DNA of 64,000 nucleotides from a virus (lineage: Duplodnaviria; Heunggongvirae; Uroviricota; Caudoviricetes). The position numbers and the translations under genes were made by a program. Positions 1 through 64,000 of the stretch are shown here, piece by piece (position 1 is the first letter of the stretch; every line of letters starts with the position of its first letter). The notes beneath the pieces are model-generated. The model was not told the DNA's origin. It searched no databases and worked only from the letters and a program-made list of their open reading frames with translations. Location: IMG/VR virus record IMGVR_UViG_3300027712_000017; one strand, 5' to 3'.

Positions 1-29
1 CACGGGTTCGAACCCCGTTATCCGCTCCA
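1..29 (+). tRNA. 3' end of a tRNA truncated by the window edge (T-arm GGGTTCGAACCCCG, acceptor ...CCGCTCCA)
   Basis: T-loop-like GTTCGAA flanked by ACGGG/CCCGT stem and terminal CCA; closely resembles 3' end of tRNA-Gly at 1613..1687. Confidence 0.5.
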
Positions 30-31
30 AT

Positions 32-105
32 GTCGGTGAAGTGTTATGGTAGCACGGCGGTCTCCAAAACCGCAAGCCAGAGTTCGACTCTCTGCACCCT
101 CGCCA
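32..105 (+). tRNA. tRNA-like, anticodon loop CTCCAAA (anticodon CCA, Trp-type); acceptor stem has 2 mismatches
   Basis: D-arm GTGT/TATGGTA/GCAC, anticodon stem GCGGT/ACCGC, T-arm CAGAG-TTCGACT-CTCTG, 3' CCA; acceptor pairing imperfect. Confidence 0.4.
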
Positions 106-111
106 AATTAT

Positions 112-186
112 GCCCGGTTAGCTCAGAGGTAGAGCGCTTCCTTTACACGGAAGATGTCATCTGTTCGATCCAGATACTGGGTACCA
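112..186 (+). tRNA. tRNA-Val (anticodon TAC)
   Basis: cloverleaf: acceptor GCCCGGT/ACTGGGT (2 GU), D-arm GCTC-AGAGGTA-GAGC, anticodon loop TTTACAC, T-arm ATCTG-TTCGATC-CAGAT, CCA. Confidence 0.75.
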
Positions 187-196
187 TTCAAGGAGG

Positions 197-397
197 TTGT
201 TATATGTCAATGCGTCAAGCGTCAAGGTTGTTTTAACTTACTGGTATGATATTCGAAAGACTATCCCAGTAGATTGGAACAACAAAGAGTCTATAAACCG
301 CTTCAAAGAAGCAAGTGATAAATATGCTAAGACCTGGTCGAAACTGAGTAGTGAAGATCAAGGATTAGTATGCGAATATATCTCAGGGGTATTGTAA
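197..397 (+). CDS. hypothetical small protein (TTG start directly after SD; start uncertain)
   Basis: ORF track 66 aa; strong SD AAGGAGG at 190-196; first in-frame ATG absent; low confidence. Confidence 0.25.
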   Translation: MLYVNASSVKVVLTYWYDIRKTIPVDWNNKESINRFKEASDKYAKTWSKLSSEDQGLVCEYISGVL

Positions 398-537
398 TGA
401 TTACAGTAAAGTATAAAGATTTGACTGCAACATATGATGAACAGACCGCAAAAGATTTAAAAGATGCACACGGTATAGACATTGAAAAAGAGTTGTTAGA
501 AACTATGAAATGTCTATACAAAGAACAAAAAGAATAA
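397..537 (+). CDS. hypothetical small protein (46 aa)
   Basis: ATG overlapping upstream TAA (TAATG), ends TAA 2 nt before next tRNA; lysine/glutamate rich. Confidence 0.4.
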   Translation: MITVKYKDLTATYDEQTAKDLKDAHGIDIEKELLETMKCLYKEQKE

Positions 538-538
538 T

Positions 539-614
539 GCCTCGGTGGTGAAATGGTAAACACACCGGTCTTAGAAGCCGTAAGCTGAGAGTTCGAGTCT
601 CTCCCGGGGCACCA
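539..614 (+). tRNA. tRNA, anticodon loop CTTAGAA (anticodon TAG, Leu-type anticodon on a class-I-length tRNA)
   Basis: acceptor GCCTCGG/CCGGGGC, T-arm GAGAG-TTCGAGT-CTCTC, discriminator A, CCA; anticodon stem 4 bp with 27-43 mismatch. Confidence 0.55.
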
Positions 615-631
615 ATAAATAGGAGGACTAT

Positions 632-847
632 ATGCGTGATCGTGCGTTTCGTCGTTTCCAGGAAATCAAAAAGAAGAAATGGGTCGTTAAGATCTTTTCT
701 CGATGGCGACCTCTTGATGAATCTTCGATAGGACAATTAGCGCATACTCCACACAATTGTTCTTGTCATATGTGCGGTAATCCTCGCAAGCACTGGAAAA
801 ACAAGACGATGCAAGAAAAACGCATCGACCAATACGAATACGAATAA
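632..847 (+). CDS. small Cys/His-rich protein (possible zinc-binding), embedded in tRNA cluster
   Basis: strong SD ATAGGAGGACTAT-ATG; motif HNCSCHMCGNPRKH; 71 aa. Confidence 0.55.
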   Translation: MRDRAFRRFQEIKKKKWVVKIFSRWRPLDESSIGQLAHTPHNCSCHMCGNPRKHWKNKTMQEKRIDQYEYE

Positions 848-848
848 C

Positions 849-922
849 GCTGCTATCGTCTAGTGGTAATACACATCCTTGGTACGGATGAGATGGAAGT
901 TCGATTCTTCCTAGCAGCACCA
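849..922 (+). tRNA. tRNA-Thr (anticodon GGT)
   Basis: perfect acceptor GCTGCTA/TAGCAGC, anticodon stem CATCC/GGATG loop TTGGTAC, T-arm GGAAG-TTCGATT-CTTCC, CCA. Confidence 0.7.
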
Positions 923-926
923 ATTT

Positions 927-1002
927 GGGTCTAGAGCATGAACGGTGTATGCAGTCGCCTCTAAAACGAACAATCTGGGCTCGAGTCCCAGTAGGCCCAC
1001 CA
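927..1002 (+). tRNA. atypical tRNA-like gene; anticodon arm irregular (3-bp stem, loop CCTCTAAAA; possible anticodon CTA)
   Basis: good acceptor GGGTCTA/TAGGCCC, D-arm GCAT-GAACGGTGT-ATGC, T-arm CTGGG-CTCGAGT-CCCAG, CCA; anticodon arm does not fold canonically. Confidence 0.45.
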
Positions 1003-1106
1003 ACATTAACATGGAGAACTACAATGAGCGATAACTCGTAGATTACTGGTCCACCCTAAATTGAACTTTCAGTATAAACAACTTGAAATCAATTTAGGAG
1101 AATAAA

Positions 1107-1565
1107 ATGTCTGTAGAACTTAAAGTAAAATCTAAACACCTTTCTGAAGAAGCTCGTATCATTCGTTTTGAAGAGCGTAAACAACTCAAACAATATCAGT
1201 GGGGATTGAAACAATGGCATGCTGCTGGAAACAACGGTATGTATCCTCGTTGGGATGATAAAGCGTTCGGTGATTACTATTCATTAAAACATCACCGTAC
1301 ATGGGATGTTCGCAATGAGAATCGTGCCACGTTTCTTGCTCGTGCTTACATTGCTGGTGTGCCTTATGCATCAGTCGAACAAAAGCGTAAGCCTGAAAAA
1401 GAGAGTTACTTCCAGGTAATGGTCTTGCCCCGTGTATGGGCTATGGTTATCAAGTATGGTAAGTGCGAAGACAGCGATAGGGTCTGGGATCGTCAAAAAG
1501 GTAAATACGAAGCAACTGCTGTTTTAAAACAAAAAATTCAGCAATGGGCAACATTGCCTGCATAA
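1107..1565 (+). CDS. hypothetical protein
   Basis: 152-aa ORF with SD AGGAGAATAAA-ATG. Confidence 0.6.
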   Translation: MSVELKVKSKHLSEEARIIRFEERKQLKQYQWGLKQWHAAGNNGMYPRWDDKAFGDYYSLKHHRTWDVRNENRATFLARAYIAGVPYASVEQKRKPEKESYFQVMVLPRVWAMVIKYGKCEDSDRVWDRQKGKYEATAVLKQKIQQWATLPA

Positions 1566-1573
1566 ATAAAACG
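1562..1573 (+). promoter_or_regulatory. T4-late-promoter-like motif CATAAATAAAACG
   Basis: one of five intergenic (T/A)ATAAATAAA(A/G)(C/G) motifs; T4 late consensus is TATAAATA. Confidence 0.3.
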
Positions 1574-1612
1574 AAGGTTTGCCAGTTTCCTTAATAACTG
1601 GACCATATTCAT

Positions 1613-1687
1613 GCGGGTGTAGCTCAGCGGTAGAGCGCTATCCTTCCAAGTTAGATGTCGTGGGTTCGACCCCCATCTCCCGCTCCA
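1613..1687 (+). tRNA. tRNA-Gly (anticodon TCC)
   Basis: D-arm GCTC-AGCGGTA-GAGC, anticodon loop CTTCCAA, T-arm GTGGG-TTCGACC-CCCAT, CCA; one acceptor mismatch. Confidence 0.65.
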
Positions 1688-1691
1688 ATAT

Positions 1692-1767
1692 GCTGTCATA
1701 GCTCATCCGGTAGAGCAGTTGCCTTGTAAGCATCAGGTGCGGGGTTCAAGTCCTCGTGGCAGCACCA
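1692..1767 (+). tRNA. tRNA-Thr (anticodon TGT)
   Basis: perfect acceptor GCTGTCA/TGGCAGC, D-arm GCTC-ATCCGGTA-GAGC, anticodon loop CTTGTAA, T-loop TTCAAGT, CCA. Confidence 0.65.
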
Positions 1768-1802
1768 TTTAAACACATAAATAATTCAAAAGGAGTTATT
1801 TT

Positions 1803-2354
1803 ATGCTGTCATTTTCTACCTTCCTAAATGAACATATCTTGTCTATCGGATTCAACAAAGCCCATGAAGGTTTGCGTGAAAAACATAGACAAGAAATTCA
1901 CGACATGATCCGTAAGTCATATGAATCTGAAAATGGCTACGGCGGGCACGCTTCAGGATCAGAAGATGAATCTAAAGAAATCCATGACGCTATATCTAAA
2001 TCTAATATCAAAGCGGTAAGACGCGATGGTAAAATTACGGCGGTCAACTTGTATAAGGATCAGCATGGACGCAAGTCAATTGCATCTGCACAAAATGGCA
2101 CACCACAAGGTAAGAAAGATTGGTATAAGTTAAAACATGAAGATCATACTCAGAAAAGAGCTTGGGGTGAAGTCTCGCATAAAGTCCTACACATCCAAAA
2201 TAAAATGGGTGTACCAAAGATACCTTCTTCGAGAGCTAAAGAATTACTTGGAAAAGATGTGACACCTACACCCGGTGACGAGCATGAATATTCACGCAAA
2301 ATTGGCAAAGAAGTTTATCAAAAAACTATGATGGGTCACCCAAAAACCTCTTGA
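1803..2354 (+). CDS. hypothetical basic protein
   Basis: 183-aa ORF, SD AAAGGAG upstream; stop TGA lies inside downstream -35 box (TCTTGACA). Confidence 0.55.
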   Translation: MLSFSTFLNEHILSIGFNKAHEGLREKHRQEIHDMIRKSYESENGYGGHASGSEDESKEIHDAISKSNIKAVRRDGKITAVNLYKDQHGRKSIASAQNGTPQGKKDWYKLKHEDHTQKRAWGEVSHKVLHIQNKMGVPKIPSSRAKELLGKDVTPTPGDEHEYSRKIGKEVYQKTMMGHPKTS

Positions 2355-2378
2355 CATCTTTTGCAATTAATCGTATAT
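2350..2378 (+). promoter_or_regulatory. sigma70-type early promoter TTGACATCTTTTGCAATTAATCG-TATATT (same family as the cassette promoters)
   Basis: TTGACA, 17-nt spacer, TATATT; shares TTGACATCTTTT core with 43.9-58 kb cassettes. Confidence 0.5.
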
Positions 2379-2400
2379 TCATTATGAAGGAGTGATAAAC

Positions 2401-2916
2401 ATGAAGAAGATTGTAGTATACTTTCACGGATATGGTTCGTCGGCACAGACTGACAAGGTTCAACAATTGCGTGACGCTGAAATTGAAACCTATTCGTGGG
2501 ACATTAATGTAGATCCTGATGTGTCAATTGAAGTCTTGATGAAAAATATTGATGACATGTTGATGGATGAGATGCACGAACCTGCTCGTGTCTTTTTCGT
2601 AGGCACTTCACTCGGTGCGTGGTATGCTTCTTTGTTGGGTAATCTTTATGGTATCAAAACTATTCTGATCAATCCATCATACAATCCTAAAGAATCGCTT
2701 GCAAAGTATGGTGTTGATCGTAGTATCCTTGAGAACTATATGATCGGTGTTGACTTTGATCCTACTCAAAAAGTATTCATCGGGACTGCAGACGAAGTAA
2801 TCGACTTCAGCGATGTTGACTTTAACGGTGCAGATATAACTTATATTGAAGGTGGCGATCATCGGTTCAATAAAGAGTTTCATCATGTGATTAACTATAT
2901 TAAGGATTTTAAATGA
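2401..2916 (+). CDS. alpha/beta-hydrolase fold esterase-like protein
   Basis: SD AAGGAG; motifs VVYFHGYGSS and GTSLGAWYA (GxSxG nucleophile elbow). Confidence 0.6.
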   Translation: MKKIVVYFHGYGSSAQTDKVQQLRDAEIETYSWDINVDPDVSIEVLMKNIDDMLMDEMHEPARVFFVGTSLGAWYASLLGNLYGIKTILINPSYNPKESLAKYGVDRSILENYMIGVDFDPTQKVFIGTADEVIDFSDVDFNGADITYIEGGDHRFNKEFHHVINYIKDFK

Positions 2917-3326
2917 AGATAGGATTTACTTGTTCAACCTTTGATTTGTTTCATGCAGGTCATGTTGCAATGCTTGAAGAAGCTAAACAGCAATGTGATT
3001 GGTTGATTGCAGGTATTCAAATTGATCCTTCGCTTGATAGAACTGAAAAGAAAAAACCAGTTCAATCGCTAATCGAAAGACAAATTCAAGTTCGTGGATG
3101 TAGATATGTTGATGAAACAATTGTATATGGATCAGAAAATGATTTGTATGATTTACTAACGACAGTTCCTATTGATATTCGAATACTCGGTGAAGAGTAT
3201 TACAATAAAAAATTCACTGGAGATGATCTTCACATGGAATTTTACTTCAACAAAAGACGCCATAAATTCAGTAGCACTGAATTGAGGCAACGTGTTCATA
3301 AAGCTAATGGAGAAATAAAGGTGTAA
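2913..3326 (+). CDS. cytidylyltransferase-like nucleotidyltransferase (HxGH family)
   Basis: N-terminal CSTFDLFHAGH (HxGH motif); ATGA overlap with upstream gene. Confidence 0.6.
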   Translation: MKIGFTCSTFDLFHAGHVAMLEEAKQQCDWLIAGIQIDPSLDRTEKKKPVQSLIERQIQVRGCRYVDETIVYGSENDLYDLLTTVPIDIRILGEEYYNKKFTGDDLHMEFYFNKRRHKFSSTELRQRVHKANGEIKV

Positions 3327-3328
3327 CT

Positions 3329-3814
3329 ATGTTTACTCAGAGACAAATCGAAGAAATAGTCGACTTGCTAATCACTCTTGACACATCAACCAAAGTATAT
3401 CTAGGTTGTGACTCAGTGAGATTCATGAGAGAAGGTCGCTGGCACGCAAGATACGCAACAGTTGCTATCATCCACAAAAATGGCAAGAATGGTTGCAGAA
3501 TCTTCAGCAATGTTTCTATCGAAGCAGATTACGATCTGAAGAAGAACCGTCCGAAGATGCGTATGATGAATGAAGTCTCTAAAGTATGTTCACTTTACAC
3601 ACAACTAGCTCCGTTCATTGATGAATATGACATTGAAATTCATCTTGACATTAACACCGACCCAAAGCATGGATCAAACTGCGCTGCAAACGAAGCAGCA
3701 GGTTTTGTTCTAGGTATGACTGGTATCGAACCAAAACTGAAACCAGATTCATGGGCAGCATCATTCGGTGCTGACGGCGTTGCTCACGGCAGAGGATATA
3801 AAGCAGTTGCCTAA
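3329..3814 (+). CDS. hypothetical protein, possibly RNase H-fold DUF458/YkuK-like
   Basis: motifs LGCDS and IEIHLDINTDPKHGS reminiscent of DUF458; inference only. Confidence 0.45.
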   Translation: MFTQRQIEEIVDLLITLDTSTKVYLGCDSVRFMREGRWHARYATVAIIHKNGKNGCRIFSNVSIEADYDLKKNRPKMRMMNEVSKVCSLYTQLAPFIDEYDIEIHLDINTDPKHGSNCAANEAAGFVLGMTGIEPKLKPDSWAASFGADGVAHGRGYKAVA

Positions 3815-3869
3815 AAAATCAATCTACAGGGGTGCAGGTAACCTCAATATGAAGGGTAAAAAGACTATG

Positions 3870-3900
3870 CGTATGCGCTGTGGGTGTTGCAGCGCATACG
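3870..3900 (+). other. strong intergenic hairpin (11-bp stem CGTATGCGCTG/CAGCGCATACG, 9-nt loop), no U-tract
   Basis: perfect inverted repeat read directly from sequence between ORF 3329..3814 and tRNA-Ser. Confidence 0.5.
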
Positions 3901-3943
3901 ACTTTCGTGATGATGAGTTGAAGAAAGAGCACAAAAAAGAAAT

Positions 3944-4035
3944 GGATCATTGGGTGAGTGGCTTAAACCAGCGGTTTGCTAAACCGTCGAACCTGTAATA
4001 GGGTTCCGCGAGTTCGAATCTCGCATGATCCGCCA
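3944..4035 (+). tRNA. tRNA-Ser (anticodon GCT), type II
   Basis: acceptor GGATCAT/ATGATCC, anticodon loop TTGCTAA, long variable arm, T-arm GCGAG-TTCGAAT-CTCGC, discriminator G, CCA. Confidence 0.75.
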
Positions 4036-4053: not shown

Positions 4054-4326
4054 ATGCAAAGCATATATTATGACCCCCTCATGAGATCATCATGGTCTGA
4101 TGAACAACTGAATTTAATTCGTGATTTGCGTAAGATTAAAGCACAGCAAGAAGGTAATCCTTTGCTGTCTAAAATTCATCGCAAAGAACATCAAAGTTTT
4201 GTTAAAGCTTGCACTATTTTAATTGAGTATTTTTATGGTACAGGAAGATTTGCTGAACGCAGTTCATATACTGATTTTCCTGAAGAACTTGAACCTTATA
4301 TGTACTATGCTCTGAGTTTGCTTTAA
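4054..4326 (+). CDS. hypothetical protein (90 aa)
   Basis: first ATG after tRNA-Ser with SD AGGA; longer track ORF would overlap the tRNA. Confidence 0.5.
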   Translation: MQSIYYDPLMRSSWSDEQLNLIRDLRKIKAQQEGNPLLSKIHRKEHQSFVKACTILIEYFYGTGRFAERSSYTDFPEELEPYMYYALSLL

Positions 4327-29667: not shown

Positions 29668-29743
29668 GCCCGTGTAGTCCAAAGGTAGAGACAGCAGACT
29701 TAAAATCTGTCCAGCGTCGGTTCGACCCCGACCACGGGTACCA
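29668..29743 (+). tRNA. tRNA, anticodon loop CTTAAAA (anticodon TAA, Leu-type) but class-I length (76 nt)
   Basis: acceptor GCCCGTG/CACGGGT, anticodon stem GCAGA/TCTGT, T-arm GTCGG-TTCGACC-CCGAC, discriminator A, CCA. Confidence 0.6.
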
Positions 29744-29758
29744 ATTTAAGGATATAAC

Positions 29759-30001
29759 ATGAAGATTACACTTGAAGATGTCATTGAGATGGCAAAGGAA
29801 GCAGAGAAAGAGAATCCTCTTTTGTGGGAACATCTCAATCTAAATCAAGACATGGCATATCGTGTAATCGCTTCTGAAACCTTTGAAATGCTTAATGAGA
29901 TCGAAGATGCAAATGAACGGCAATTGACTTTGCTTGTTGCGTTTGTATTGTCACAGATGGAGAACTATGTTCTCAATGTCAAATTAGGTCTAATGAATTG
30001 A
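29759..30001 (+). CDS. hypothetical protein (80 aa)
   Basis: SD AAGGATATAAC-ATG. Confidence 0.45.
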   Translation: MKITLEDVIEMAKEAEKENPLLWEHLNLNQDMAYRVIASETFEMLNEIEDANERQLTLLVAFVLSQMENYVLNVKLGLMN

Positions 30002-30006
30002 TTTAT

Positions 30007-30083
30007 GGGCCTGTAGCTCAATTGGTCAGAGCTGAGCGCTCATAACGCTTAGGTTGGGGGTTCGAGTCCCTCCGGGCCTACCA
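30007..30083 (+). tRNA. tRNA with anticodon CAT (elongator Met or lysidine-Ile2)
   Basis: acceptor GGGCCTG/CGGGCCT, D-arm GCTC-AATTGGTCA-GAGC, anticodon loop CTCATAA, T-arm GGGGG-TTCGAGT-CCCTC, CCA. Confidence 0.75.
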
Positions 30084-30100
30084 TCAACAAAGAGGTAACT

Positions 30101-30253
30101 ATGTCTAAATCTAGTCTAGAATATACTGAAATGGCGGGATTAACACAAGCGATGGTAAAACTACGATGTATCCCTATTACGGATCAAGACGAAGATTGGG
30201 TTGTTATTACTGAATGGATGAATAAACGTATTGACGAATTAGCAAAGAAATAA
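30101..30253 (+). CDS. hypothetical small protein (50 aa) between two tRNAs
   Basis: SD AAAGAGGTAACT-ATG; stop 1 nt before next tRNA. Confidence 0.35.
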   Translation: MSKSSLEYTEMAGLTQAMVKLRCIPITDQDEDWVVITEWMNKRIDELAKK

Positions 30254-30254
30254 T

Positions 30255-30346
30255 GGAAGTGAGACTGGGTAGTCAGAGAGGACTTATAAACCTTTTAGCG
30301 CCTGATTAGCGTTCTTGACTGGGTTCGAGTCCCAGCACTTCTACCA
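30255..30346 (+). tRNA. type II (long variable arm) tRNA with unusual anticodon loop CTTATAA (anticodon TAT?)
   Basis: acceptor GGAAGTG/CACTTCT, 3-bp D-stem, 5-bp variable-arm stem, T-arm CTGGG-TTCGAGT-CCCAG, discriminator A, CCA. Confidence 0.55.
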
Positions 30347-30390
30347 TAAACTCTTATGTTATAAATAATAACACACAATAGGGGAATCAT

Positions 30391-30876
30391 ATGTCAATCA
30401 AAGCAATTCATAAAGATATAATGTCGCATGTAAAAACCGCTGATAATGGTAGGGGCTTTAAATCTAACGAAAATGTTGAGCATCTTGCAGATGATGGTCA
30501 TACACATCAATATACTTATAGTAGTGGCCAAGGACATGCTGCAAATCTAATGTCCCATTTGAAATCTAAAGGTTGGACTATTAGTAACCATAAGACATAT
30601 GAAGGTGCTTTGACATACGAAGGTGAATATCCAGGTAAAACTCATCGTTATACTGCGACTAAAGGTGATGCAAAAATTCATGTTAATCACGCTGAAGGAG
30701 AACATGATGATGATACTGCAGGACATTATCACGAACTTCAAGTTTCTGATATGCCGCACCATCCAATTGAACATATGAGAAGTATTCCTACCTTCGGACA
30801 ATTCTTACAATCGACTGGCAAAGACAAAGAATTAGCACACGCTGCAGGATTAGTTCCTAAAAATAAGATGAATTAA
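30391..30876 (+). CDS. hypothetical His-rich protein
   Basis: SD AGGGGAATCAT-ATG; 161 aa with many His. Confidence 0.5.
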   Translation: MSIKAIHKDIMSHVKTADNGRGFKSNENVEHLADDGHTHQYTYSSGQGHAANLMSHLKSKGWTISNHKTYEGALTYEGEYPGKTHRYTATKGDAKIHVNHAEGEHDDDTAGHYHELQVSDMPHHPIEHMRSIPTFGQFLQSTGKDKELAHAAGLVPKNKMN

Positions 30877-30894
30877 TCTAGAAGGAGAATACAC

Positions 30895-31095
30895 ATGACT
30901 AAATATGCAATTGAAAGAGATAATGCTATTGTGAATCATATTGTATTCGTAGGTAAAGGATTGTATCGCAAAACTGATGTAATCCCACTTGTATTGAATA
31001 CAACTAAGAAAGCGCAAGAGATCGCAGAAGTTCTTGATGGAACAGTAGTTGACTACGATGCTTACATGACAGAAGATTTTGCGATTGCTGCGTAA
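30895..31095 (+). CDS. hypothetical protein (66 aa)
   Basis: SD GAAGGAGAATACAC-ATG. Confidence 0.45.
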   Translation: MTKYAIERDNAIVNHIVFVGKGLYRKTDVIPLVLNTTKKAQEIAEVLDGTVVDYDAYMTEDFAIAA

Positions 31096-31101
31096 TACTG
31101 G

Positions 31102-31130
31102 TTGACAATATTACTACAATATACTATATA
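31102..31130 (+). promoter_or_regulatory. sigma70-type promoter TTGACA-17-TATATA upstream of tRNA-Leu
   Basis: TTGACAATATTACTACAATATACTATATA. Confidence 0.55.
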
Positions 31131-31138
31131 ATAACAAT

Positions 31139-31225
31139 GCCCCTATGGTGGAACTGGTAGACACGGTGGATTCAAACTCCGCTCGAAGATAGTAGGTGCA
31201 GGTTCGAGTCCTGCTAGGGGCACCA
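31139..31225 (+). tRNA. tRNA-Leu (anticodon CAA), type II
   Basis: perfect acceptor GCCCCTA/TAGGGGC, anticodon stem GTGGA/TCCGC loop TTCAAAC, long variable arm, T-loop TTCGAGT, CCA. Confidence 0.75.
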
Positions 31226-31244: not shown

Positions 31245-31445
31245 ATGACTAAAATCTACCTAAAGGCTGTATTCTTTGTTGCAGTTACGGTTGCAACATT
31301 CTGCCTTATTCTTCCCTTCCTATTTTCTGCACGAGATGACTCCCTAGTACTTGCAGGGATCGTTGTGCTTGCTGCCTATCCTGTATTTGCATGGCATTAC
31401 GGGATCAATGTTCTTAATCAAATCAAACAAAAGGTTTCTAAATAA
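31245..31445 (+). CDS. small membrane protein
   Basis: 66-aa hydrophobic ORF. Confidence 0.45.
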   Translation: MTKIYLKAVFFVAVTVATFCLILPFLFSARDDSLVLAGIVVLAAYPVFAWHYGINVLNQIKQKVSK

Positions 31446-32305
31446 TGAAGTTTCGTAATGTAGCTCTTGCTGTGTTGATGTTGGGTTCTGTCGCTGCTTG
31501 TTCAACTGTTCCTGCAGGTCATGTTGGCGTGAAAGTATTCCTGTTGGGCGGTGACAAGGGTGTTGATTCTGAGGAATTGGGTGTAGGTCGTTATTGGATT
31601 GGTCCTAACGAACAACTATACATCTTCCCAACTTTTATGCAAAACTATGTGTGGACGAAAGATGTAAATGAAGGTTCGCCTAATGACGAATCTATTTCGT
31701 TTCAAACTGCAGACGGCATGACTGCAAATGCGGATGTAGGTATTTCTTATTCAATTGATCCTTCTAAAGTAACGACAATCTTCCAGACCTATCGTCGTGG
31801 CGTTGATGAGATTACTGACACCTTCCTGCGTAATATGGTTCGTGATGCACTCGTAAAAGAAGCGTCAAGTAAACCTATTGAATATGTTTACGGTGCAGGT
31901 AAAGCAGAGTTGATGGCATCTGTGCAAAAAGATGTTTCAGATCAGGTTGCAGCAATCGGTATTAAGATCGACAAAATTTACTGGATTGGTGAAATTCGTT
32001 TGCCGCAAACTGTGATTGAATCTATCAACAACAAGAATGCTGCAACTCAAATGGCGCAACAACGCCAAAACGAAGTTGCACAAGCAACTGCTGAAGCACA
32101 AAAGCGTGTTGCTGAGGCAAAAGGTGAAGCAGATTCTATTCTGTTGAAAGCAGAAGCACAAGCTCAAGCAAACAAGATCCTTGCTCAATCACTTACTGCA
32201 GAATTTGTGCAATATGAAGCTCTGCAAAAATGGGATGGTAAGTTGCCTACTATGACGGGTTCGAGCGCGATTCCGTTTGTCAATGTCACTAATGGAGGTC
32301 AGTAA
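31445..32305 (+). CDS. SPFH/band-7 (prohibitin-like) lipoprotein
   Basis: lipobox LGSVAAC in signal peptide; SPFH-type sequence with C-terminal coiled coil. Confidence 0.7.
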   Translation: MKFRNVALAVLMLGSVAACSTVPAGHVGVKVFLLGGDKGVDSEELGVGRYWIGPNEQLYIFPTFMQNYVWTKDVNEGSPNDESISFQTADGMTANADVGISYSIDPSKVTTIFQTYRRGVDEITDTFLRNMVRDALVKEASSKPIEYVYGAGKAELMASVQKDVSDQVAAIGIKIDKIYWIGEIRLPQTVIESINNKNAATQMAQQRQNEVAQATAEAQKRVAEAKGEADSILLKAEAQAQANKILAQSLTAEFVQYEALQKWDGKLPTMTGSSAIPFVNVTNGGQ

Positions 32306-32497: not shown

Positions 32498-32914
32498 ATG
32501 GCTGCTAAATGGGCTGAACCAGCATGCGGTTGCGAAGTAAGCAACTTTGATCGTGTTATTGATTTTATGAAAACATTCGGGCAGGAGGTTAAAGACTCCC
32601 CCGAGTTCCCCAAACCTGAGGTTGTTAGCCTTCGACAAGATCTTATTATCGAAGAATACAATGAGTTGCGTGATGCTATTATAGCAAAAGACATTGTAGA
32701 AGTTGCAGATGCTCTTACTGATCTTCTATATGTTATCTATGGTGCAGGTGTTGCATTCGGTATTGATCTTGACGCTTGCTTTCAAGAAGTTCATGCAAGC
32801 AATATGTCGAAGTTGATGCCTGATGGGACTATCTTGCGCCGTGAAGATGGTAAGGTTCTAAAAGGTCCAAATTATTTTGTGCCTGACCTGAAAAAAGTGC
32901 TTGACATTAAATAA
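32498..32914 (+). CDS. mazG: MazG-like nucleoside triphosphate pyrophosphohydrolase
   Basis: EEYNELRDAI ... EVADALTDLLYVIYG MazG signature. Confidence 0.75.
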   Translation: MAAKWAEPACGCEVSNFDRVIDFMKTFGQEVKDSPEFPKPEVVSLRQDLIIEEYNELRDAIIAKDIVEVADALTDLLYVIYGAGVAFGIDLDACFQEVHASNMSKLMPDGTILRREDGKVLKGPNYFVPDLKKVLDIK

Positions 32915-33179: not shown

Positions 33180-33334
33180 TAGAACTAAACGACCGTAATT
33201 ACGAAGAATTTAAGAAGCAGTTTTGGGAATGGTTTGATACCTTAACCCTAGCTGAAAAAATGAGATTCTGGTATTATGGTGCGGATATGGCAGAGTTGAA
33301 CTTTTATAACAGAGTTTACTCTAAACGTAATTAG
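33176..33334 (+). CDS. hypothetical small protein (52 aa)
   Basis: ATGA overlap with upstream gene. Confidence 0.3.
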   Translation: MIELNDRNYEEFKKQFWEWFDTLTLAEKMRFWYYGADMAELNFYNRVYSKRN

Positions 33335-33339
33335 GGATG

Positions 33340-33725
33340 ATTACAGCAACCTCTTATCATAAAAAGATCCTCCGGGATCATGCACAGCTCGACTTAAATC
33401 CTTCGGGATCGAGCAAAACGCCAGAGTTAATTCTGGATATTGCATGAGAATACATGATATTGTCAGTAGAAACTGAATATAGCATAGGTGAAACCAATGT
33501 CGCGGCAGATGAGTTTTAAAAGGTCTGCAAACGATAGTAAAATTAATTACGTCTCGCCCATCCCGTAGACTTTTAGGTTACCTACAGCAAACCTTACACG
33601 CCATGGTGGCAATTTTTTTATCAAAAAACCTAACGGTTCGATTCCGTAAATGCGTAACCTGCTGAATTTAGATTCAGTTCCGCCTACAATAGCTCGATAA
33701 GCAAACCCTATGAATCTGTGAAAAG
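33340..33725 (+). ncRNA. candidate Y RNA-like structured non-coding RNA upstream of Ro60/Rsr gene
   Basis: 390-bp ORF-free gap; UUCG hairpins GATCC-tccg-GGATC and ATCC-ttcg-GGAT; tRNA-like T-arm AACGG-TTCGATT-CCGT; extra hairpin CTGAAT-ttag-ATTCAG. Confidence 0.35.
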
Positions 33726-33734
33726 GAAAATATA

Positions 33735-35177
33735 ATGAACTCTTTTGTGAATGCCGTTAAAAATCAAGACGCTCGTACCGCAAATGGTATGAAGTCTCGT
33801 AAGTCGTCTTCTTCTGCTGCAGTTGATCTGTTCTTCAAGATCGGTGCGTCTCGTGGTAAGAACATTACCCCTGACTTTACTGCAGCATTCGTGGAAAACC
33901 GTGATTATGCAATTCGTATTGCTCAATGGGCGCGTGACGCTCGTGAGGGTGCTGGTGAGCGTAAGATCTTCCGCGATGTGTTGATTGACCTTGAGGTTCG
34001 TGATACTGACACCGCAAAGTCTCTTGCCCGTAAGGTCCCAGAGATCGGTCGTTGGGATGACATCCTCGTATTCAAGACTGCAGAAATGCAAGCATTTGCA
34101 TTTGACCTTGTAAAGGCAGCGCTTGACGCTGGCAATGGTCTATGTGCAAAGTGGATGCCTCGTAAGGGTGCAGTATCACTTGCATTGCGCGCTCACTTGG
34201 GCTGGTCACCTAAGTTTTATCGCAAGCGTCTTGTTGAATTGACTAAGGTCGTTGAGCAAGATATGTGCGCTAACAAGTGGGATGAAATCAATTTCAACCA
34301 CGTCCCTTCTGTGGCGTCTGCACGCTATAAGAAGGCGTTTACTCGTCATACTGACGCATATAAGGAATGGGCTGCAAAGCTTGTTTCTACTGATCCTGAA
34401 GTCACAAAGACCGTAAAGGTCAATGCCGGTGCGGTTTATCCGTATGACGTATTGAAGGGTTTGATCAGACCTGCGGGTTATGGTTCTGTAAAGTATGATA
34501 AGGCAAACTTGAACCACATCGTTGCACAATGGGAGGCTATGCCTAACTTTGTTGGTGATGCGAACATTTTGCCTATTGTGGACGTATCGGGCTCTATGAC
34601 TTGCAAAGCAGGTGGTTATGGTTCTAAATCAGAAACTACTTGTCTTGATGTGTCGGTTTCTTTGGGTCTGTATCTTGCAGATAAGAACAAGGGTAAGTTC
34701 AAGGATACCTTCTTGACTTTCTCTGGCAATCCAGAACTTGTTCATCTTAAGGGTAATGTTGTTGAGAAGATTGATCAAATGGTCAAAGTTTCTTGGCAAA
34801 TGAATACCAACCTCAATGCAGCGATCCAAAAGATCCTTGATGTTGCAGTTAATGGTAAAGTCCCTGCAGAAGAAATGCCATCAATGCTGTTGATCCTTTC
34901 GGATATGCAATTTGATTCTTGCGCTCGTTACGACGATTCCGCACAAGAGATGATTGCACGGAAGTATGAAGCAGCAGGTTATAAGATGCCTCAAATCGTA
35001 TACTGGAACCTAAATGCTGCGGACAATGTCCCAGTGAAGATGGATGCGCGAGGTGTCGCCATGGTATCAGGTTTCAGCCCTTCTATTGTTAAAAGCGTTC
35101 TGTCTGCGAACATGGATGAGTTTACTCCAGAAGGTATCATGCGAAAGACCATCATGGCTGCTCGATACGATTACTAA
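33735..35177 (+). CDS. rsr: Ro60/Rsr orthologue (TROVE domain + C-terminal vWA domain with MIDAS)
   Basis: SD AAAGGAAAATATA-ATG; GWSPKFYRKRL region like Ro60 GWSHKDLLRL; MIDAS LPIVDVSGSMT like Ro60 LAVDVSASM. Confidence 0.7.
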   Translation: MNSFVNAVKNQDARTANGMKSRKSSSSAAVDLFFKIGASRGKNITPDFTAAFVENRDYAIRIAQWARDAREGAGERKIFRDVLIDLEVRDTDTAKSLARKVPEIGRWDDILVFKTAEMQAFAFDLVKAALDAGNGLCAKWMPRKGAVSLALRAHLGWSPKFYRKRLVELTKVVEQDMCANKWDEINFNHVPSVASARYKKAFTRHTDAYKEWAAKLVSTDPEVTKTVKVNAGAVYPYDVLKGLIRPAGYGSVKYDKANLNHIVAQWEAMPNFVGDANILPIVDVSGSMTCKAGGYGSKSETTCLDVSVSLGLYLADKNKGKFKDTFLTFSGNPELVHLKGNVVEKIDQMVKVSWQMNTNLNAAIQKILDVAVNGKVPAEEMPSMLLILSDMQFDSCARYDDSAQEMIARKYEAAGYKMPQIVYWNLNAADNVPVKMDARGVAMVSGFSPSIVKSVLSANMDEFTPEGIMRKTIMAARYDY

Positions 35178-35259
35178 AAACAAGGGGGAGCGAAAGTTCC
35201 CCCTTGACATATTTTAACGTATATGCGATAAATGATTATGATGAAAAATAGGTGATGCG

Positions 35260-35808
35260 ATGACAAAGAACATCTGGGTGATCTCTGATACCCATTTCAA
35301 CCATGCCAACATTCTGAAGTTCGAAGATCGTGTAGGTAAAGCAGTTCGTGGTCAATTCAGTTCTGTCGAAGAAATGAATGAACACATGATCCAGCGTTGG
35401 AATGAAGTTGTTAAACCTGGCGATAAAGTATATCATCTGGGCGATGTTGTTTTCGGTGACAACAAAGTAGAATGGATGGATAAACACATGCCACGCATGA
35501 ATGGTTCAAAGCGTCTGATCTTTGGTAACCACGATGAACCATCACACTTTGTTGGTAAAGGTCATTTCCAAAAGACATCGCTGTGGCGTGTATTCAAAGA
35601 GTTTAACATTCTGTTGACTCACGTTCCAGTGCATGAATCTACAGTAATGGAAGGTCGCGGCGGTTCAATTCGTCCTATGCTGAATGTTCACGGGCATATT
35701 CACCAAAACGAATCTCCTTCACAATTCCATCATTGCGTCAGCGTAGAACATACTGACTATTACCCTGTCAATATCGAAGATCTGGCAAAAATTGCAAATA
35801 AACTTTAA
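35260..35808 (+). CDS. calcineurin-like metallophosphoesterase
   Basis: VISDTHFNH, GDVVFG, FGNHD, HGHIH metallophosphatase motifs. Confidence 0.75.
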   Translation: MTKNIWVISDTHFNHANILKFEDRVGKAVRGQFSSVEEMNEHMIQRWNEVVKPGDKVYHLGDVVFGDNKVEWMDKHMPRMNGSKRLIFGNHDEPSHFVGKGHFQKTSLWRVFKEFNILLTHVPVHESTVMEGRGGSIRPMLNVHGHIHQNESPSQFHHCVSVEHTDYYPVNIEDLAKIANKL

Positions 35809-63520: not shown

Positions 63521-63901
63521 TACGACACAATAGTTATTGACATTATGTGTATCAGATGATATACATATAGATGTAGTGATGATATTCACTGAACACGTTC
63601 TGGACTCGGGGGCGGTACCCGACGACTCCACCACAGATACATTGGTCACCATAGTCGGAACAAATATGGTGTAATAGGTTTCTCCGAACACCCAATGTAT
63701 CTTTGCTGGGGTCGAAATAGGATCGACAGGCGTACTAGGCAGGATGGAGCTACCCGGCGAAAGCTCGGTTAACGCAATAAAATCAAGAAATGCAAATGAA
63801 AATTTCGCACCGGTAGCTTACGCTCTAGCAGCATAATCTACCTGGGTATGGGCTCCACCTAGAAACAGAACGGGCCTTCACACGTAACATAATAGGATGA
63901 A

Positions 63902-64000
63902 ATGATGAAAACTTTTCTTTTGACTGCTACTGCAGTTTTGGCACTTACTGCTGGTTCAGCTTTTGCAGTTGACCTAGGCAAGAGCAACTTTCAGTTTAAT
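63902..64000 (+). CDS. 5' end of a secreted protein gene (signal peptide MMKTFLLTATAVLALTAGSAFA), truncated by window
   Basis: N-terminal signal peptide with AFA-V cleavage site. Confidence 0.4.
   Translation, partial: MMKTFLLTATAVLALTAGSAFAVDLGKSNFQFN

What the first reader, a model, noticed from the sequence alone, without database searches (positions are those of the whole stretch)
33340..35177. Ro60/Rsr orthologue with an upstream Y RNA-like structured ncRNA in a T4-like phage
ORF 33735..35177 has the TROVE-type N-terminal region and a C-terminal vWA domain with MIDAS (LPIVDVSGSMT). This is the architecture of Ro60/Rsr.

The 390-bp ORF-free stretch just upstream (33340..33725) contains:
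- UUCG-tetraloop hairpins GATCC-tccg-GGATC and ATCC-ttcg-GGAT;
- a further hairpin CTGAAT-ttag-ATTCAG;
- a canonical tRNA T-arm AACGG-TTCGATT-CCGT on the same strand.

Bacterial Y RNAs (YrlA type) are encoded next to rsr and carry a tRNA-like module. A Ro60/Y RNA RNP in a T4-like lytic phage would be unusual. It could act in RNA quality control, tRNA surveillance, or as a counter to host anticodon nucleases.
Basis: partly seen in the sequence, partly recalled or inferred. Interest (0 to 1): 0.85.

Follow-up and report, generated by a model that had tools for sequence, protein, structure and literature searches.

The report
Ro60-like protein plus modular Y-like RNAs
A T4-like phage encodes a distant structural relative of the RNA-chaperone Ro60, and just upstream lie three small structured RNAs of an unannotated family that travels with this gene in many phages and often mimics parts of tRNAs.

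Summary

The 390-nt gap is not one RNA. It holds three head-to-tail modules:
- M1, 33334-33568
- M2, 33575-33664
- M3, 33670-33720

Each module is closed by a covarying 6-8 bp helix, with YAGCAA just inside the 5' strand and CCYGUU at the 3' end. A covariance model built only from other phages finds M2 as the sole significant hit in the window (E=3e-5). In 40 related loci all 59 hits lie on the gene's strand.

These modules sit inside phage tRNA arrays and next to the gene, from a mycobacteriophage to E. coli Felixounavirus. Their inserts include YrlA-like permuted tRNA mimics (sub-threshold Rfam YrlA hits) and anticodon-loop mimics. The window's M2 is a reduced cloverleaf with a conserved T-arm.

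Verdict: a Ro60-like/Y-RNA-like system, a new variant of a known kind. It is not rare: 710 phage records carry the gene. RNA binding and function are inferred, not shown.

The parts
33334..33568 (+). Module M1: a large framed RNA of about 235 nt. The closing helix is GGGATG (33334-33339) with CATCCC (33559-33564). The 5' inner motif is ATTACAGCAA (33340-33349) and the 3' tail is GTAG.
   Evidence: Descriptor hit. The same GGGATG...CATCCC frame around a 190-240-nt insert is seen in L001, L062, L003, L004, L064, L031 and L011. The frame helix is kept in all 7 aligned sequences, and the 3' part AAAATTAAT...CTCG.CCATCCCGTAGA is conserved. The interior is poorly conserved. R1 finds only its 5' half (E=0.35), because the model cannot span the insert.
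33575..33664 (+). Module M2: a framed tRNA-like cloverleaf.
- The closing helix is AGGTTAC (33575-81) with GTAACCT (33654-60).
- The inner motif is CTACAGCAA (33582-90).
- H1 is GCCA-TGG-TGGC (33600-10) and resembles a D-arm.
- H2 is an A/U hairpin (33613-29) in the anticodon-arm position.
- The T-arm is ACGG-TTCGATT-CCGT (33633-47).
- The tail is GCTG.
   Evidence: R1, trained on other phages, scores 33.2 bits, E=3.3e-5, the only significant hit in the window. RNAalifold on the window, L001, L062, L063 and L035 gives 21 pairs, 6 of them with compensatory changes, and an invariant T-arm. The single-sequence MFE shows the same helices.
33662..33677 (+). Junction hairpin CTGAAT-TTAG-ATTCAG, formed by the M2 tail and the M3 5' strand. 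It is a possible alternative pairing, mutually exclusive with the M3 closing helix.
   Evidence: It is present in the MFE fold. In L062 and L063 it reads TTGAATC-TTA/TAA-GATTCAA, so C:G becomes T:A, one compensatory change. This rests on only two independent lineages. It cannot form in most other loci.
33670..33720 (+). Module M3: a short framed module abutting the ribosome-binding site. The closing helix is AGATTCA (33670-76) with TGAATCT (33711-17). The inner motif is GTTCCGCC and the tail is GTG.
   Evidence: Descriptor hit. An RBS-adjacent last module with covarying helices (AGATTCA/TGAATCT, AGATTGA/TCAATCT, AGGTTCA/TGAACCT, AGGTTAA/TTAACCT and others) is seen in L002, L004, L005, L011, L012, L018, L019, L021, L027, L062-L066. 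In 16 of 49 exact-pattern cases a frame ends 26-34 nt before the start of the gene match. R1 does not detect M3.
33723..33727 (+). Shine-Dalgarno AAGGA, 7 nt upstream of the ATG at 33735 and 5 nt downstream of the M3 helix.
   Evidence: Read from the sequence. The same ...ATCTGT(A/T)GAAAGGAAA...ATG arrangement occurs in relatives.
33735..35177 (+). Gene for a 480-aa Ro60-like protein of the DUF2828/DUF7788 family (phrog_850). The N-terminal part is alpha-helical repeat (about res 1-270). The C-terminal part is a vWA domain (res 278-460, nt 34566-35114) with MIDAS D283-x-S285-x-S287 (nt 34581-34595), T358 and D390.
   Evidence: - Family: Pfam; PHROG 7e-132 'RNA-binding protein'.
- Model: AF2 pLDDT 70.3, pTM 0.55.
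- Foldseek: only Ro60 entries at E<=1e-3.
- MIDAS residues invariant.
35181..35206 (+). Intrinsic terminator-like hairpin CAAGGGGGA-GCGAAAGT-TCCCCCTTG, closing the unit.
   Evidence: 11-bp stem with 7 GC pairs, followed by a T-containing tail.

Best explanation
**Shown**

The ORF encodes a protein whose predicted fold is that of Ro60: a helical-repeat region plus a vWA domain with an intact MIDAS. It belongs to a sequence family (DUF2828/DUF7788) distinct from TROVE.

The 390 nt upstream encode three tandem members of a widespread phage RNA family that has no family of its own in Rfam. Each member is closed by a 5'-3' terminal helix that covaries. It has a conserved purine-rich motif (T/A)NC(A/C/T)GCAA just inside the 5' strand, an A-rich 3' inner strand, and a CCYGUU-type 3' end. 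The family is strand-locked to the gene. It lies next to the gene or within the same tRNA array in very different phages.

**Inferred**

The terminal helix plus the YAGCAA internal loop is the docking site for the Ro60-like protein. This would be analogous to the terminal stem plus (G)NCGAA bulge of bacterial and phage Y RNAs. The variable insert is the 'cargo' module.

- In relatives the cargo is a YrlA-type permuted tRNA mimic (V hairpin, T arm, closed acceptor hairpin, D arm), an acceptor-less tRNA, or an anticodon stem-loop mimic (CUNNNAA loops).
- In this window the cargo is a large structured RNA (M1), a reduced cloverleaf with a canonical T-arm (M2), and a short module touching the RBS (M3).

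The modules are probably transcribed with neighbouring genes and tRNAs and released at the 6-8-nt U/A-rich linkers.

The resulting RNP would present tRNA-like surfaces to tRNA-recognising host factors, such as modification enzymes, PNPase or other nucleases, and defence nucleases. It would act in RNA surveillance or, more likely for a lytic phage, in counter-defence.

Binding of the protein to M3 next to the Shine-Dalgarno would give translational autoregulation.
For: **Protein**
- All five Foldseek hits at E<=1e-3 are Ro60 structures, aligned over the full length.
- The MIDAS residues are invariant.
- PHROG 850 is named 'RNA-binding protein', and actinophage annotators call homologues 'Ro-like'.

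**RNA**
- The frame helix is 93% paired in 22 modules from other phages. 7 of 8 pairs show double changes, 0 of 500 shuffles reach this, and slid controls give 36-47%.
- R1 finds M2 at E=3e-5 as the sole significant hit in the window.
- All 59 R1 hits in 252 kb of related loci are on the gene strand, including loci not used in training.
- The descriptor gives 101 hits on the gene strand against 15 on the other.

**Coupling of RNA and gene**
- Frames sit directly downstream of the gene in marine relatives that have no tRNAs nearby (L040, L042, L048, L050, L056).
- Mycobacteriophage Snenia has three frames plus a terminator after gp54.
- E. coli phage CL1 has four frames after the gene.
- Starting from the RNA pattern, 44 of 120 hits have the gene within the fetched stretch, and the strand count is 49 to 0.
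- The T4 and T5 tRNA regions give no hit. These phages appear to lack the gene, an inference from the organism counts.

**Y-RNA link**
- Ten framed modules in relatives hit Rfam YrlA at 34-46 bits.
- The architecture (terminal stem, internal loop with a short purine motif, variable module) matches the descriptions in PMC4201824 and PMC12135203.

**Function**
- Bas63 gp130 is a Felixounavirus protein described as Ro60-like and lying directly upstream of the tRNA genes. That is the position of the DUF2828 gene in Felixounavirus CL1. It counters the Ppl defence (PMC11482910).
Against: - There is no direct evidence that the protein binds these RNAs, or that discrete small RNAs accumulate.
- The AF2 model has only moderate confidence (pLDDT 70, pTM 0.55). 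Ring closure was not examined.
- There is no sequence-level link to TROVE.
- The conserved 5' motif is YAGCAA, not the GNCGAA of YrlA. The YrlA model's lower stem does not fit.
- The window's own modules get no YrlA hit. M2 lacks the closed acceptor hairpin and a full D-arm, M3 is not found by R1, and M1's interior is not conserved.
- Frames are also found up to 8 kb from the gene. 76 of 120 frame-bearing stretches show no gene within the stretch held. Frames lie a median of 8 nt from tRNAs, so part of the linkage could reflect shared residence in tRNA arrays.
- The whole-region folding energy is unremarkable (z = -1.05).
Confidence: 0.62

Rival explanations
1. The framed modules are components of phage tRNA arrays in their own right: processing or punctuation cassettes, or degenerate or permuted tRNA derivatives. 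They would be matured by RNase P/E like tRNAs. They would have no specific partnership with the DUF2828 protein, which simply tends to be encoded in the same tRNA region.
For: 113 of 120 frame-bearing stretches contain tRNAs. 336 of 343 frames share the tRNA strand, and the median gap to a tRNA is 8 nt. Frames occur up to 8 kb from the gene, and 76 of 120 stretches show no gene in the stretch held. Many inserts are tRNA fragments: Rfam tRNA model positions 5-66 at L002:925, L021:2594 and L064:1111.
Against: In relatives without nearby tRNAs the frames still abut the gene (L040-L056), and the same holds in Snenia. In this window the three other tRNA groups (1-4035, 29668-31225, 36080) have no frames; only the gene has them. 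The T4 and T5 arrays have none. A frame ends at a fixed 26-34 nt from the gene start in 16 cases. The conserved non-tRNA motif YAGCAA/CCYGUU is not explained by tRNA decay.
Confidence: 0.17
2. The stretch is only a cis-acting 5' leader of the gene. It would act as a translational operator or a structural switch (junction hairpin against the M3 helix) controlling ribosome access, not as a source of trans-acting RNAs.
For: M3 ends 5 nt before the Shine-Dalgarno. An RBS-adjacent module is conserved in the clade whose proteins are >=54% identical to the window's. The junction hairpin excludes the M3 helix and shows one compensatory change. No strong promoter is predicted between the upstream ORF and M1.
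Against: In other clades the same modules lie downstream of the gene and are followed by a terminator (Snenia, L040). They also lie between tRNAs kilobases away, where they cannot be leaders. In several relatives, sequences resembling sigma-70 promoters (TTGACT...TATAAT), read by eye and not scanned, sit inside the arrays just upstream of a module. This explanation can be true for M3 alongside the main one.
Confidence: 0.12
3. The protein is a vWA/MIDAS adaptor that works through protein-protein contacts. Examples would be an inhibitor of a host defence protein or a co-chaperone. The Ro60 resemblance of its helical part would be structural convergence without RNA binding.
For: The strongest sequence signal is in the vWA-type DUF7788 domain. 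There is no TROVE sequence signal. The model has moderate confidence, with low-pLDDT segments at residues 11-25, 180-205 and 227-251. The reported phenotype of the Felixounavirus protein gp130 is defence inhibition with no RNA data (PMC11482910).
Against: 355 residues align to phage Ro60, about twice the length of a vWA domain. The only full-length structural matches are Ro60 proteins. There is persistent strand-locked linkage to a conserved RNA family, some members of which are YrlA-like.
Confidence: 0.09

Closest known systems
Bacterial Ro60 (Rsr) with YrlA/YrlB Y RNAs (Salmonella, Mycobacterium smegmatis and mycobacteriophages; Chen et al. 2014, PMC4201824; Rfam RF02553)
   Same: - The fold is a ring-type helical repeat plus vWA/MIDAS.
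- Small RNAs are encoded next to the gene on the same strand, several per locus.
- The design is modular: a terminal stem and a short purine motif on the 5' strand, plus a variable domain.
- In relatives the variable domain is a permuted tRNA mimic in the order V, T, closed acceptor hairpin, D. It scores 34-46 bits on RF02553.
   Different: - The protein is not a TROVE member by sequence.
- The motif is YAGCAA with a CCYGUU 3' end, instead of GNCGAAN0-1G.
- All hits are below Rfam's gathering score of 69.
- The window's own module lacks the acceptor hairpin and a full D-arm.
- Modules occur in arrays of 2-8 and are interleaved with genuine tRNAs. Many carry only an anticodon-loop mimic or a 200-nt insert.
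Thermus phage phiLo Ro60 with Yrl1/Yrl2 (PMC12135203; PDB 9KOP, 9L5Y)
   Different: Sequence identity is 15-17%. phiLo Ro60 is deposited as a TROVE domain protein and uses a CGAA motif. No tRNA-array context or tRNA-mimic cargo is described for it. Binding to its RNAs and to host PNPase is shown experimentally for phiLo, and nothing is shown here.
Felixounavirus Bas63 gp130, counter of the Ppl defence (PhageMaP preprint, PMC11482910)
   Same: It is probably the same protein family. Felixounavirus homologues are 37-38% identical to the window protein, are DUF2828/DUF7788, and sit directly upstream of the tRNA block. The authors noted the Ro60-like structure and guessed that some 'tRNA genes' are Y RNAs.
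   Different: I did not retrieve Bas63 itself, so orthology is inferred from the synteny of Felixounavirus CL1. The preprint identified no RNAs. Here four framed modules, one of them YrlA-like, are located between the annotated tRNAs of CL1. The host and phage type also differ.
Stable non-tRNA RNAs of the phage T4 (rnaC, rnaD) and T5 (RNA I, III, 1, 2, X...) tRNA regions
   Same: They are small stable RNAs of unknown function, co-encoded and co-processed with phage tRNAs. Some are described as tRNA-like.
   Different: They have no frame motif: R1 gives no hit at E<0.8 in either region (T4 sequence read). From the organism counts these phages appear to lack the DUF2828 gene.

Membership tests
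Ro60 / TROVE (Pfam PF05731) protein family | Significant match to the TROVE domain profile | tested here: not met
   Pfam scan at E<=1 gives DUF7788, DUF2828 and weak VWA_2, with no TROVE. phmmer and a 41-sequence profile against all PDB sequences do not reach any Ro60.
Ro60 / TROVE (Pfam PF05731) protein family | Ro60 fold: alpha-helical (HEAT-like) repeat region joined to a C-terminal vWA domain | tested here: met
Ro60 / TROVE (Pfam PF05731) protein family | MIDAS motif (DxSxS ... T ... D) in the vWA domain | tested here: met
   D283, S285, S287, T358 and D390 are invariant in alignment A1.
Ro60 / TROVE (Pfam PF05731) protein family | Binds Y RNA on the outer surface and misfolded RNA ends in the central hole | not testable with these tools
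   This needs EMSA, CLIP or an RNP structure.
YrlA-type Y RNA (Rfam RF02553) | Reaches the Rfam gathering score (69 bits) | tested here: not met
   The window has no hit even at E<=10. Relatives' tRNA-mimic modules score 34-46 bits, which is significant but below threshold.
YrlA-type Y RNA (Rfam RF02553) | Encoded within 4 kb of the Ro60-type gene on the same strand | tested here: met
   M1-M3 end 15 nt upstream of the ATG on the + strand. All 59 R1 hits in relatives lie on the gene strand.
YrlA-type Y RNA (Rfam RF02553) | tRNA-like domain with T-arm, closed acceptor-like hairpin (AS) and D-arm | tested here: inconclusive
   The window's M2 has a canonical, conserved T-arm, a 4-bp hairpin with a UGG loop in the D-arm position and an anticodon-arm-like hairpin, but no AS hairpin. 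The full V-T-AS-D order is present in relatives (L013, L019, L021, L024, L027, L034, Snenia, CL1).
YrlA-type Y RNA (Rfam RF02553) | GNCGAAN0-1G motif near the 5' end (the proposed Rsr contact) | tested here: not met
   The conserved 5' motif is (T/A)NC(A/C/T)GCAA; C, G, C and A are invariant in 22 modules. The lower stem of the YrlA model is mismatched in the Snenia alignment.
Framed-module RNA family defined here (model R1) | Covarying terminal helix, YAGCAA inside the 5' strand and a CCYGUU-type 3' end, on the strand of a DUF2828 gene | tested here: met
   - M2: R1 gives 33.2 bits, E=3.3e-5.
- M1 and M3 satisfy the descriptor only. M1's 5' half scores E=0.35 and M3 is not detected by R1.
- Orthologous M1-M2-M3 order is seen in L001, L062 and L063.

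The most novel reading that the evidence does not exclude
The framed modules are a phage toolkit of scaffolded tRNA-part decoys. A Ro60-like protein would dock on the common YAGCAA helix and display either anticodon stem-loop mimics or tRNA-elbow mimics. The anticodon-loop mimics are CUNNNAA loops, most often with UUU as in tRNA-Lys, then GUU, UGU and UCU. The elbow mimics are T-arm/D-arm units. These would trap or mis-direct host tRNA-targeting defence nucleases, or tRNA-sensing immune proteins, during infection. This would be a new RNA-based anti-defence strategy, working alongside the phage's own tRNA genes.
Probability: 0.2. Interest if true: 0.85.

Novelty: new variant of a known kind. 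Interest (0 to 1): 0.62.

Why it matters
Ro60/Y-RNA particles are known in animals, bacteria and a few phages, but their roles in phage infection are unclear.

This work links a second, sequence-distinct Ro60-like protein family to a large, unannotated family of modular small RNAs. The protein family has more than 7,900 database relatives and occurs in 710 sequenced phages, including Felixounavirus, Listeria and Staphylococcus phages relevant to phage therapy. The RNAs are hidden inside phage tRNA arrays.

If the pairing is real, three things follow:
- It gives a concrete RNA partner, and testable binding site, for a protein of a family already implicated in overcoming a bacterial defence (Ppl).
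- It explains odd 'tRNA-OTHER' calls and intergenic gaps in phage tRNA regions.
- It suggests that phages deploy tRNA-part mimics, not only whole tRNAs, in their conflict with host tRNA-directed immunity.

Tried and rejected
1. **Rfam on the window.** The gathering-threshold search, and the E<=10 search on 33250-33800, gave no meaningful family. The Dictyostelium Class I RNA hit at E=0.02 merely reflects the M2 closing helix.
2. **Whole-region folding energy.** It is not distinguishable from shuffles (z = -1.05), so thermodynamics alone does not support the finding.
3. **Sequence routes to Ro60.** Pfam, NCBIfam, phmmer and a profile against PDB all found nothing. Only fold comparison made the link.
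4. **First descriptor.** It was too loose and buggy, giving 109 hits, and was discarded.
5. **Reverse search with only the 5' half-pattern TTTAGGN6TWCAGCAAAC.** About 116 of 120 hits were coincidences, many apparently coding (e.g. the reading LGxxTAN), with no 3' partner and no gene. The pattern was not specific enough. It was replaced by a two-sided pattern.
6. **A repeated promoter-like motif.** TTACCTACAGCAAACC occurs only once in the window.
7. **T4 rnaC/rnaD and the T5 stable RNAs as members of the family.** Rejected.
8. **A consensus structure for M1.** The alignment of 7 large modules is too poor beyond the frame helix.
9. **Weak R1 hit at 4133-4207, after tRNA-Ser.** It lies downstream of an ATG at 4070 and lacks the frame, so it looks coding.
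10. **Finding Bas63 by guessing its accession.** The guess failed.
Full report
**1. What is at the coordinates**

The ORF 33735-35177 (+) is real and encodes 480 aa. LPIVDVSGSMT is at residues 279-289. In an alignment of 41 homologues (47-83% identity) the complete MIDAS set is invariant: D283, S285, S287, T358, D390.

The stretch 33335-33734 contains no ORF above 39 aa. The first loop is UCCG rather than UUCG.

The window comes from a T4-like phage. Its DNA polymerase is about 52% identical to gp43 of T4-like cyanophages. It also carries a DnaB-type helicase and ribonucleotide reductase, 13 tRNA genes and a two-piece tmRNA.

**2. The protein**

Sequence methods do not call it Ro60.
- Pfam gives DUF7788 (E=3e-49, residues 279-460) and DUF2828 (E=1e-15, residues 166-269), VWA_2 only at E=0.09, and no TROVE at E<=1.
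- NCBIfam gives nothing.
- phmmer and a 41-sequence profile find no Ro60 among PDB sequences.
- PHROGs places it full-length in phrog_850, 'RNA-binding protein' (E=7e-132).

The family is very large. More than 7,900 proteins reach E<=1e-5. tblastn finds the gene in 710 of 50,697 phage records, including Felixounavirus, KVP40-like Vibrio phages, Listeria P100-like, Staphylococcus, Campylobacter, Bacillus and Enterococcus phages. It also finds about 95 mycobacteriophages, where it is annotated 'Ro-like RNA binding protein'. Those mycobacteriophage and Felixounavirus proteins are also DUF2828+DUF7788, not TROVE.

An AlphaFold2 model has moderate confidence (pLDDT 70.3, pTM 0.55). Compared with solved structures it gives a clear result.
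- Foldseek agrees. The only five hits at E<=1e-3 are Ro60 structures aligned over the full length.

So the protein has the Ro60 architecture at the level of fold, but it belongs to a separate sequence family. 'Orthologue' is too strong; 'distant structural homologue' is supported.

**3. The RNA: three framed modules, not one Y RNA**

Fifty-nine related viral loci were fetched through the protein. In nearly all loci whose protein is >=54% identical, the gene is preceded by a long ORF-free gap. That gap carries T-loop motifs on the gene strand that ARAGORN does not call as tRNAs.

Reading these gaps shows a repeating unit:
- a 5' (U)UUURGG lead;
- a 6-10-bp helix strand;
- the motif (T/A)NC(A/C/T)GCAA;
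- a variable insert;
- an A-rich segment;
- the complementary helix strand ending CCY;
- then GUU(A/G).

Units follow one another head-to-tail with 6-8-nt linkers. The window has three:
- M1, 33334-33568: helix GGGATG/CATCCC with an insert of about 220 nt that contains the two UNCG hairpins.
- M2, 33575-33664: helix AGGTTAC/GTAACCT.
- M3, 33670-33720: helix AGATTCA/TGAATCT, ending 5 nt before the Shine-Dalgarno.

The statistics are as follows.
- A strict descriptor finds 8 hits in the window against about 2 in shuffles. The only tiled ones are these three.
- In 382 kb of related loci the descriptor finds 101 hits on the gene strand and 15 on the other.
- In 22 short modules from other phages, including the mycobacteriophage and a marine clade, the closing helix is 93% paired. 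7 of 8 pairs show changes on both sides, 0 of 500 shuffles reach this, and slid controls give 36-47%. This set was chosen partly for pairing, so the strand asymmetry is the cleaner control.
- Covariance model R1 was built from those 22 sequences, with the window excluded. It finds M2 at 33.2 bits, E=3.3e-5, as the only significant hit in both strands of the 64-kb window. The next hit is the 5' half of M1 (E=0.35), and M3 is missed.
- Across 40 related loci (252 kb) all 59 hits at E<=0.01 lie on the gene strand, many in loci not used for training.

Close relatives show the same M1-M2-M3 order: L062 at 82% and L063 at 79% protein identity.

The consensus fold of M2 from five loci is a cloverleaf:
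- the frame helix;
- H1, a 4-bp stem with a UGG-type loop in the D-arm position;
- H2, a 5-bp stem that in relatives carries a 7-nt CUNNNAA loop, in the anticodon-arm position;
- an invariant T-arm, CGGTTCGAWTCCG.

Six pairs change on both sides.

M1's interior is poorly conserved. Only its frame, its 3' segment and a few hairpins align, and the UNCG hairpins are specific to the window and L001.

It recurs in L062 and L063 with one compensatory change. It may therefore be a real alternative to the M3 helix, but it cannot form in most other loci.

**4. What the modules carry, and where they live**

Rfam has no family of its own for the frame. The inserts fall into several classes.

- *YrlA-type permuted tRNA mimics.* About 110-130-nt modules have the order V hairpin, T-arm, closed acceptor hairpin, D-arm. 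Ten of these give significant but sub-threshold hits to Rfam YrlA RF02553 (34-46 bits against a gathering score of 69). The tRNA-like part aligns but YrlA's lower stem does not.
- *Acceptor-less tRNAs.* These match Rfam tRNA model positions 5-66.
- *Short modules of about 50-70 nt.* Their predicted hairpin loops are mostly 7 nt (91 of 172). 60 of those 91 read CUNNNAA, the canonical anticodon-loop frame. The central triplets are UUU (27), GUU (8), UGU (8) and UCU (7). These counts include related phages and are not independent.
- *Larger inserts of 160-250 nt*, of unknown nature.

A two-sided exact pattern was then used to start from the RNA.
- At least 120 viral stretches match.
- 44 of them contain the DUF2828 gene within the stretch held.
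- All 49 frames in those stretches are on the gene's strand.
- 16 frames end 26-34 nt before the gene.
- 113 of 120 stretches contain tRNAs, 336 of 343 frames share the tRNA strand, and the median distance to the nearest tRNA is 8 nt.

The modules are therefore members of phage tRNA arrays.

Several observations argue that the link is to the gene and not only to tRNAs.
- Marine relatives have no tRNA within 3 kb but still carry frames directly after the gene, followed by a terminator (L040, L042, L048, L050, L056).
- Mycobacteriophage Snenia has three frames, the middle one YrlA-like, plus a terminator right after its 'Ro-like' gp54.
- E. coli Felixounavirus CL1 has four frames, one YrlA-like, between the tRNAs that follow its DUF2828 gene.
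- In this window the three other tRNA groups have no frames.
- The tRNA regions of T4 and T5 have none. These phages appear to lack the gene, because the 120 Escherichia records with the gene equal the 120 Escherichia Felixounavirus records, against 675 Escherichia records with a T4-type polymerase.

**5. How it most likely works**

*Shown:* a Ro60-fold protein and a conserved, strand-locked, structurally constrained RNA family encoded with it.

*Inferred by analogy with Ro60/Y RNA.* Y RNAs have a terminal stem plus a short 5'-strand purine motif as the protein site, and a variable module that recruits other factors (PMC4201824, PMC12135203). By that analogy:
- The protein docks on the frame helix and YAGCAA loop.
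- The insert presents tRNA-like surfaces.
- The RNAs are cut out of polycistronic transcripts at the U/A-rich linkers.
- M3, sitting on the RBS, could let the protein repress its own translation.

A counter-defence role is suggested by the report that Felixounavirus Bas63 gp130 is Ro60-like in structure, lies directly upstream of the tRNA block, and is needed to overcome the Ppl system (PMC11482910). I infer it is the same family from the synteny of CL1, but I did not retrieve Bas63 itself.

RNA quality control or recruitment of host PNPase, as shown for phiLo, remains equally possible. None of the binding or processing steps has been tested.

**6. Comparison and novelty**

Ro60 homologues with adjacent Y-like RNAs are known in bacteria and phages (PMC4201824, PMC12135203, PMC7824862), and the Ro60-like structure of a Felixounavirus protein has been noted.

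I could not find the following described in the literature searched:
- a second protein family, DUF2828/DUF7788, with its own frame motif (YAGCAA / CCYGUU rather than GNCGAA);
- the organisation as arrays of interchangeable modules embedded in tRNA arrays;
- the anticodon-loop and reduced-cloverleaf cargos;
- the RBS-adjacent module.

I therefore rate it a new variant of a known kind. It is of moderate to good interest, mainly because it gives a testable RNA partner to a widespread phage protein of a family implicated in anti-defence.

**7. Caveats**

- The structural model is of moderate confidence.
- The module census used a hand-made descriptor and a model trained on one size class.
- Frames far from the gene, and stretches without the gene in view, leave room for the 'tRNA-array element' rival.
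- The window's own modules are the least YrlA-like of the family.

Noticed in passing
window 63533-63927 (+): A two-piece (permuted, alphaproteobacterial-type) tmRNA gene with tag ANENFAPVAYALAA in this T4-like phage. Rfam alpha_tmRNA scores 115.8 bits and tmRNA_permuted 109.2 bits. This may hint at an alphaproteobacterial host.
   Followed up: no
window 927-999 (+): Rfam calls a 13th tRNA (41.4 bits) that ARAGORN did not report.
   Followed up: no
window 31445-32305 (+); L060 259-1191: An SPFH/band-7-type lipoprotein gene (phrog_200) lies 1.4 kb upstream of the Ro60-like gene. Mycobacteriophage Snenia also has a 'band-7-like membrane protein' (gp48) a few genes upstream of its Ro-like gp54. 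This may be conserved linkage across very distant phages.
   Followed up: partly
window 35260-35808 (+); L062 4420-4880; L063 2737-3285: A metallophosphoesterase gene follows the Ro60-like gene here and in close relatives. In those relatives, YAcAr (PF10686) and cREC_REC (PF20274) genes lie in between. A MazG-like pyrophosphohydrolase is at 32498-32914. This may be a nucleotide or RNA-end-processing neighbourhood.
   Followed up: no
This excludes M3's own closing helix next to the RBS. One compensatory change is seen in L062 and L063. It could be a structural switch.
   Followed up: partly
L002 273-459; L004 1466-1582; L034 1258-1455; L003 1325-1424; L024 286-439; L031 2794-2901; L032 2863-2986: There are two recurrent, unidentified insert classes inside frames. 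One has the core AAAGGTCTCGGTGCAAATCCGAGG...GTGTAATAGCAGCAC. The other has GGGG(U/A)AACCCGAAC...GTGAGTTTCG...CTCAC...AAAAAGTAGA. Neither has an Rfam family.
   Followed up: no
L061 4708-5520 (Escherichia phage CL1) and about 250 Felixounavirus records: Four unannotated framed modules lie between annotated tRNAs just after the DUF2828 gene. Several Felixounavirus records annotate a 'tRNA-OTHER' in this block, which may be the YrlA-like module.
   Followed up: partly
L003 1430-1505; L012 3695-3766: ARAGORN predicts tRNAs with anticodon CTA (reported as tRNA-Pyl) in related phage tRNA arrays. These may be amber suppressors.
   Followed up: no
L310 (phage T5 28000-46000); L308 (phage T4 70908-71171): The T5 and T4 tRNA regions carry annotated stable RNAs of unknown function, some described as 'tRNA-like'. 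They lack the frame motif. They may be a separate class of RNA resident in tRNA arrays.
   Followed up: partly
L057, L058 (giant-virus MAG contigs): Distant DUF2828 homologues (25-26% identity) occur in giant-virus metagenome bins, with no frames detected nearby. Pfam's DUF2828 also covers eukaryotic proteins (my own knowledge, not checked here), so the RNA partnership may be specific to phages.
   Followed up: no
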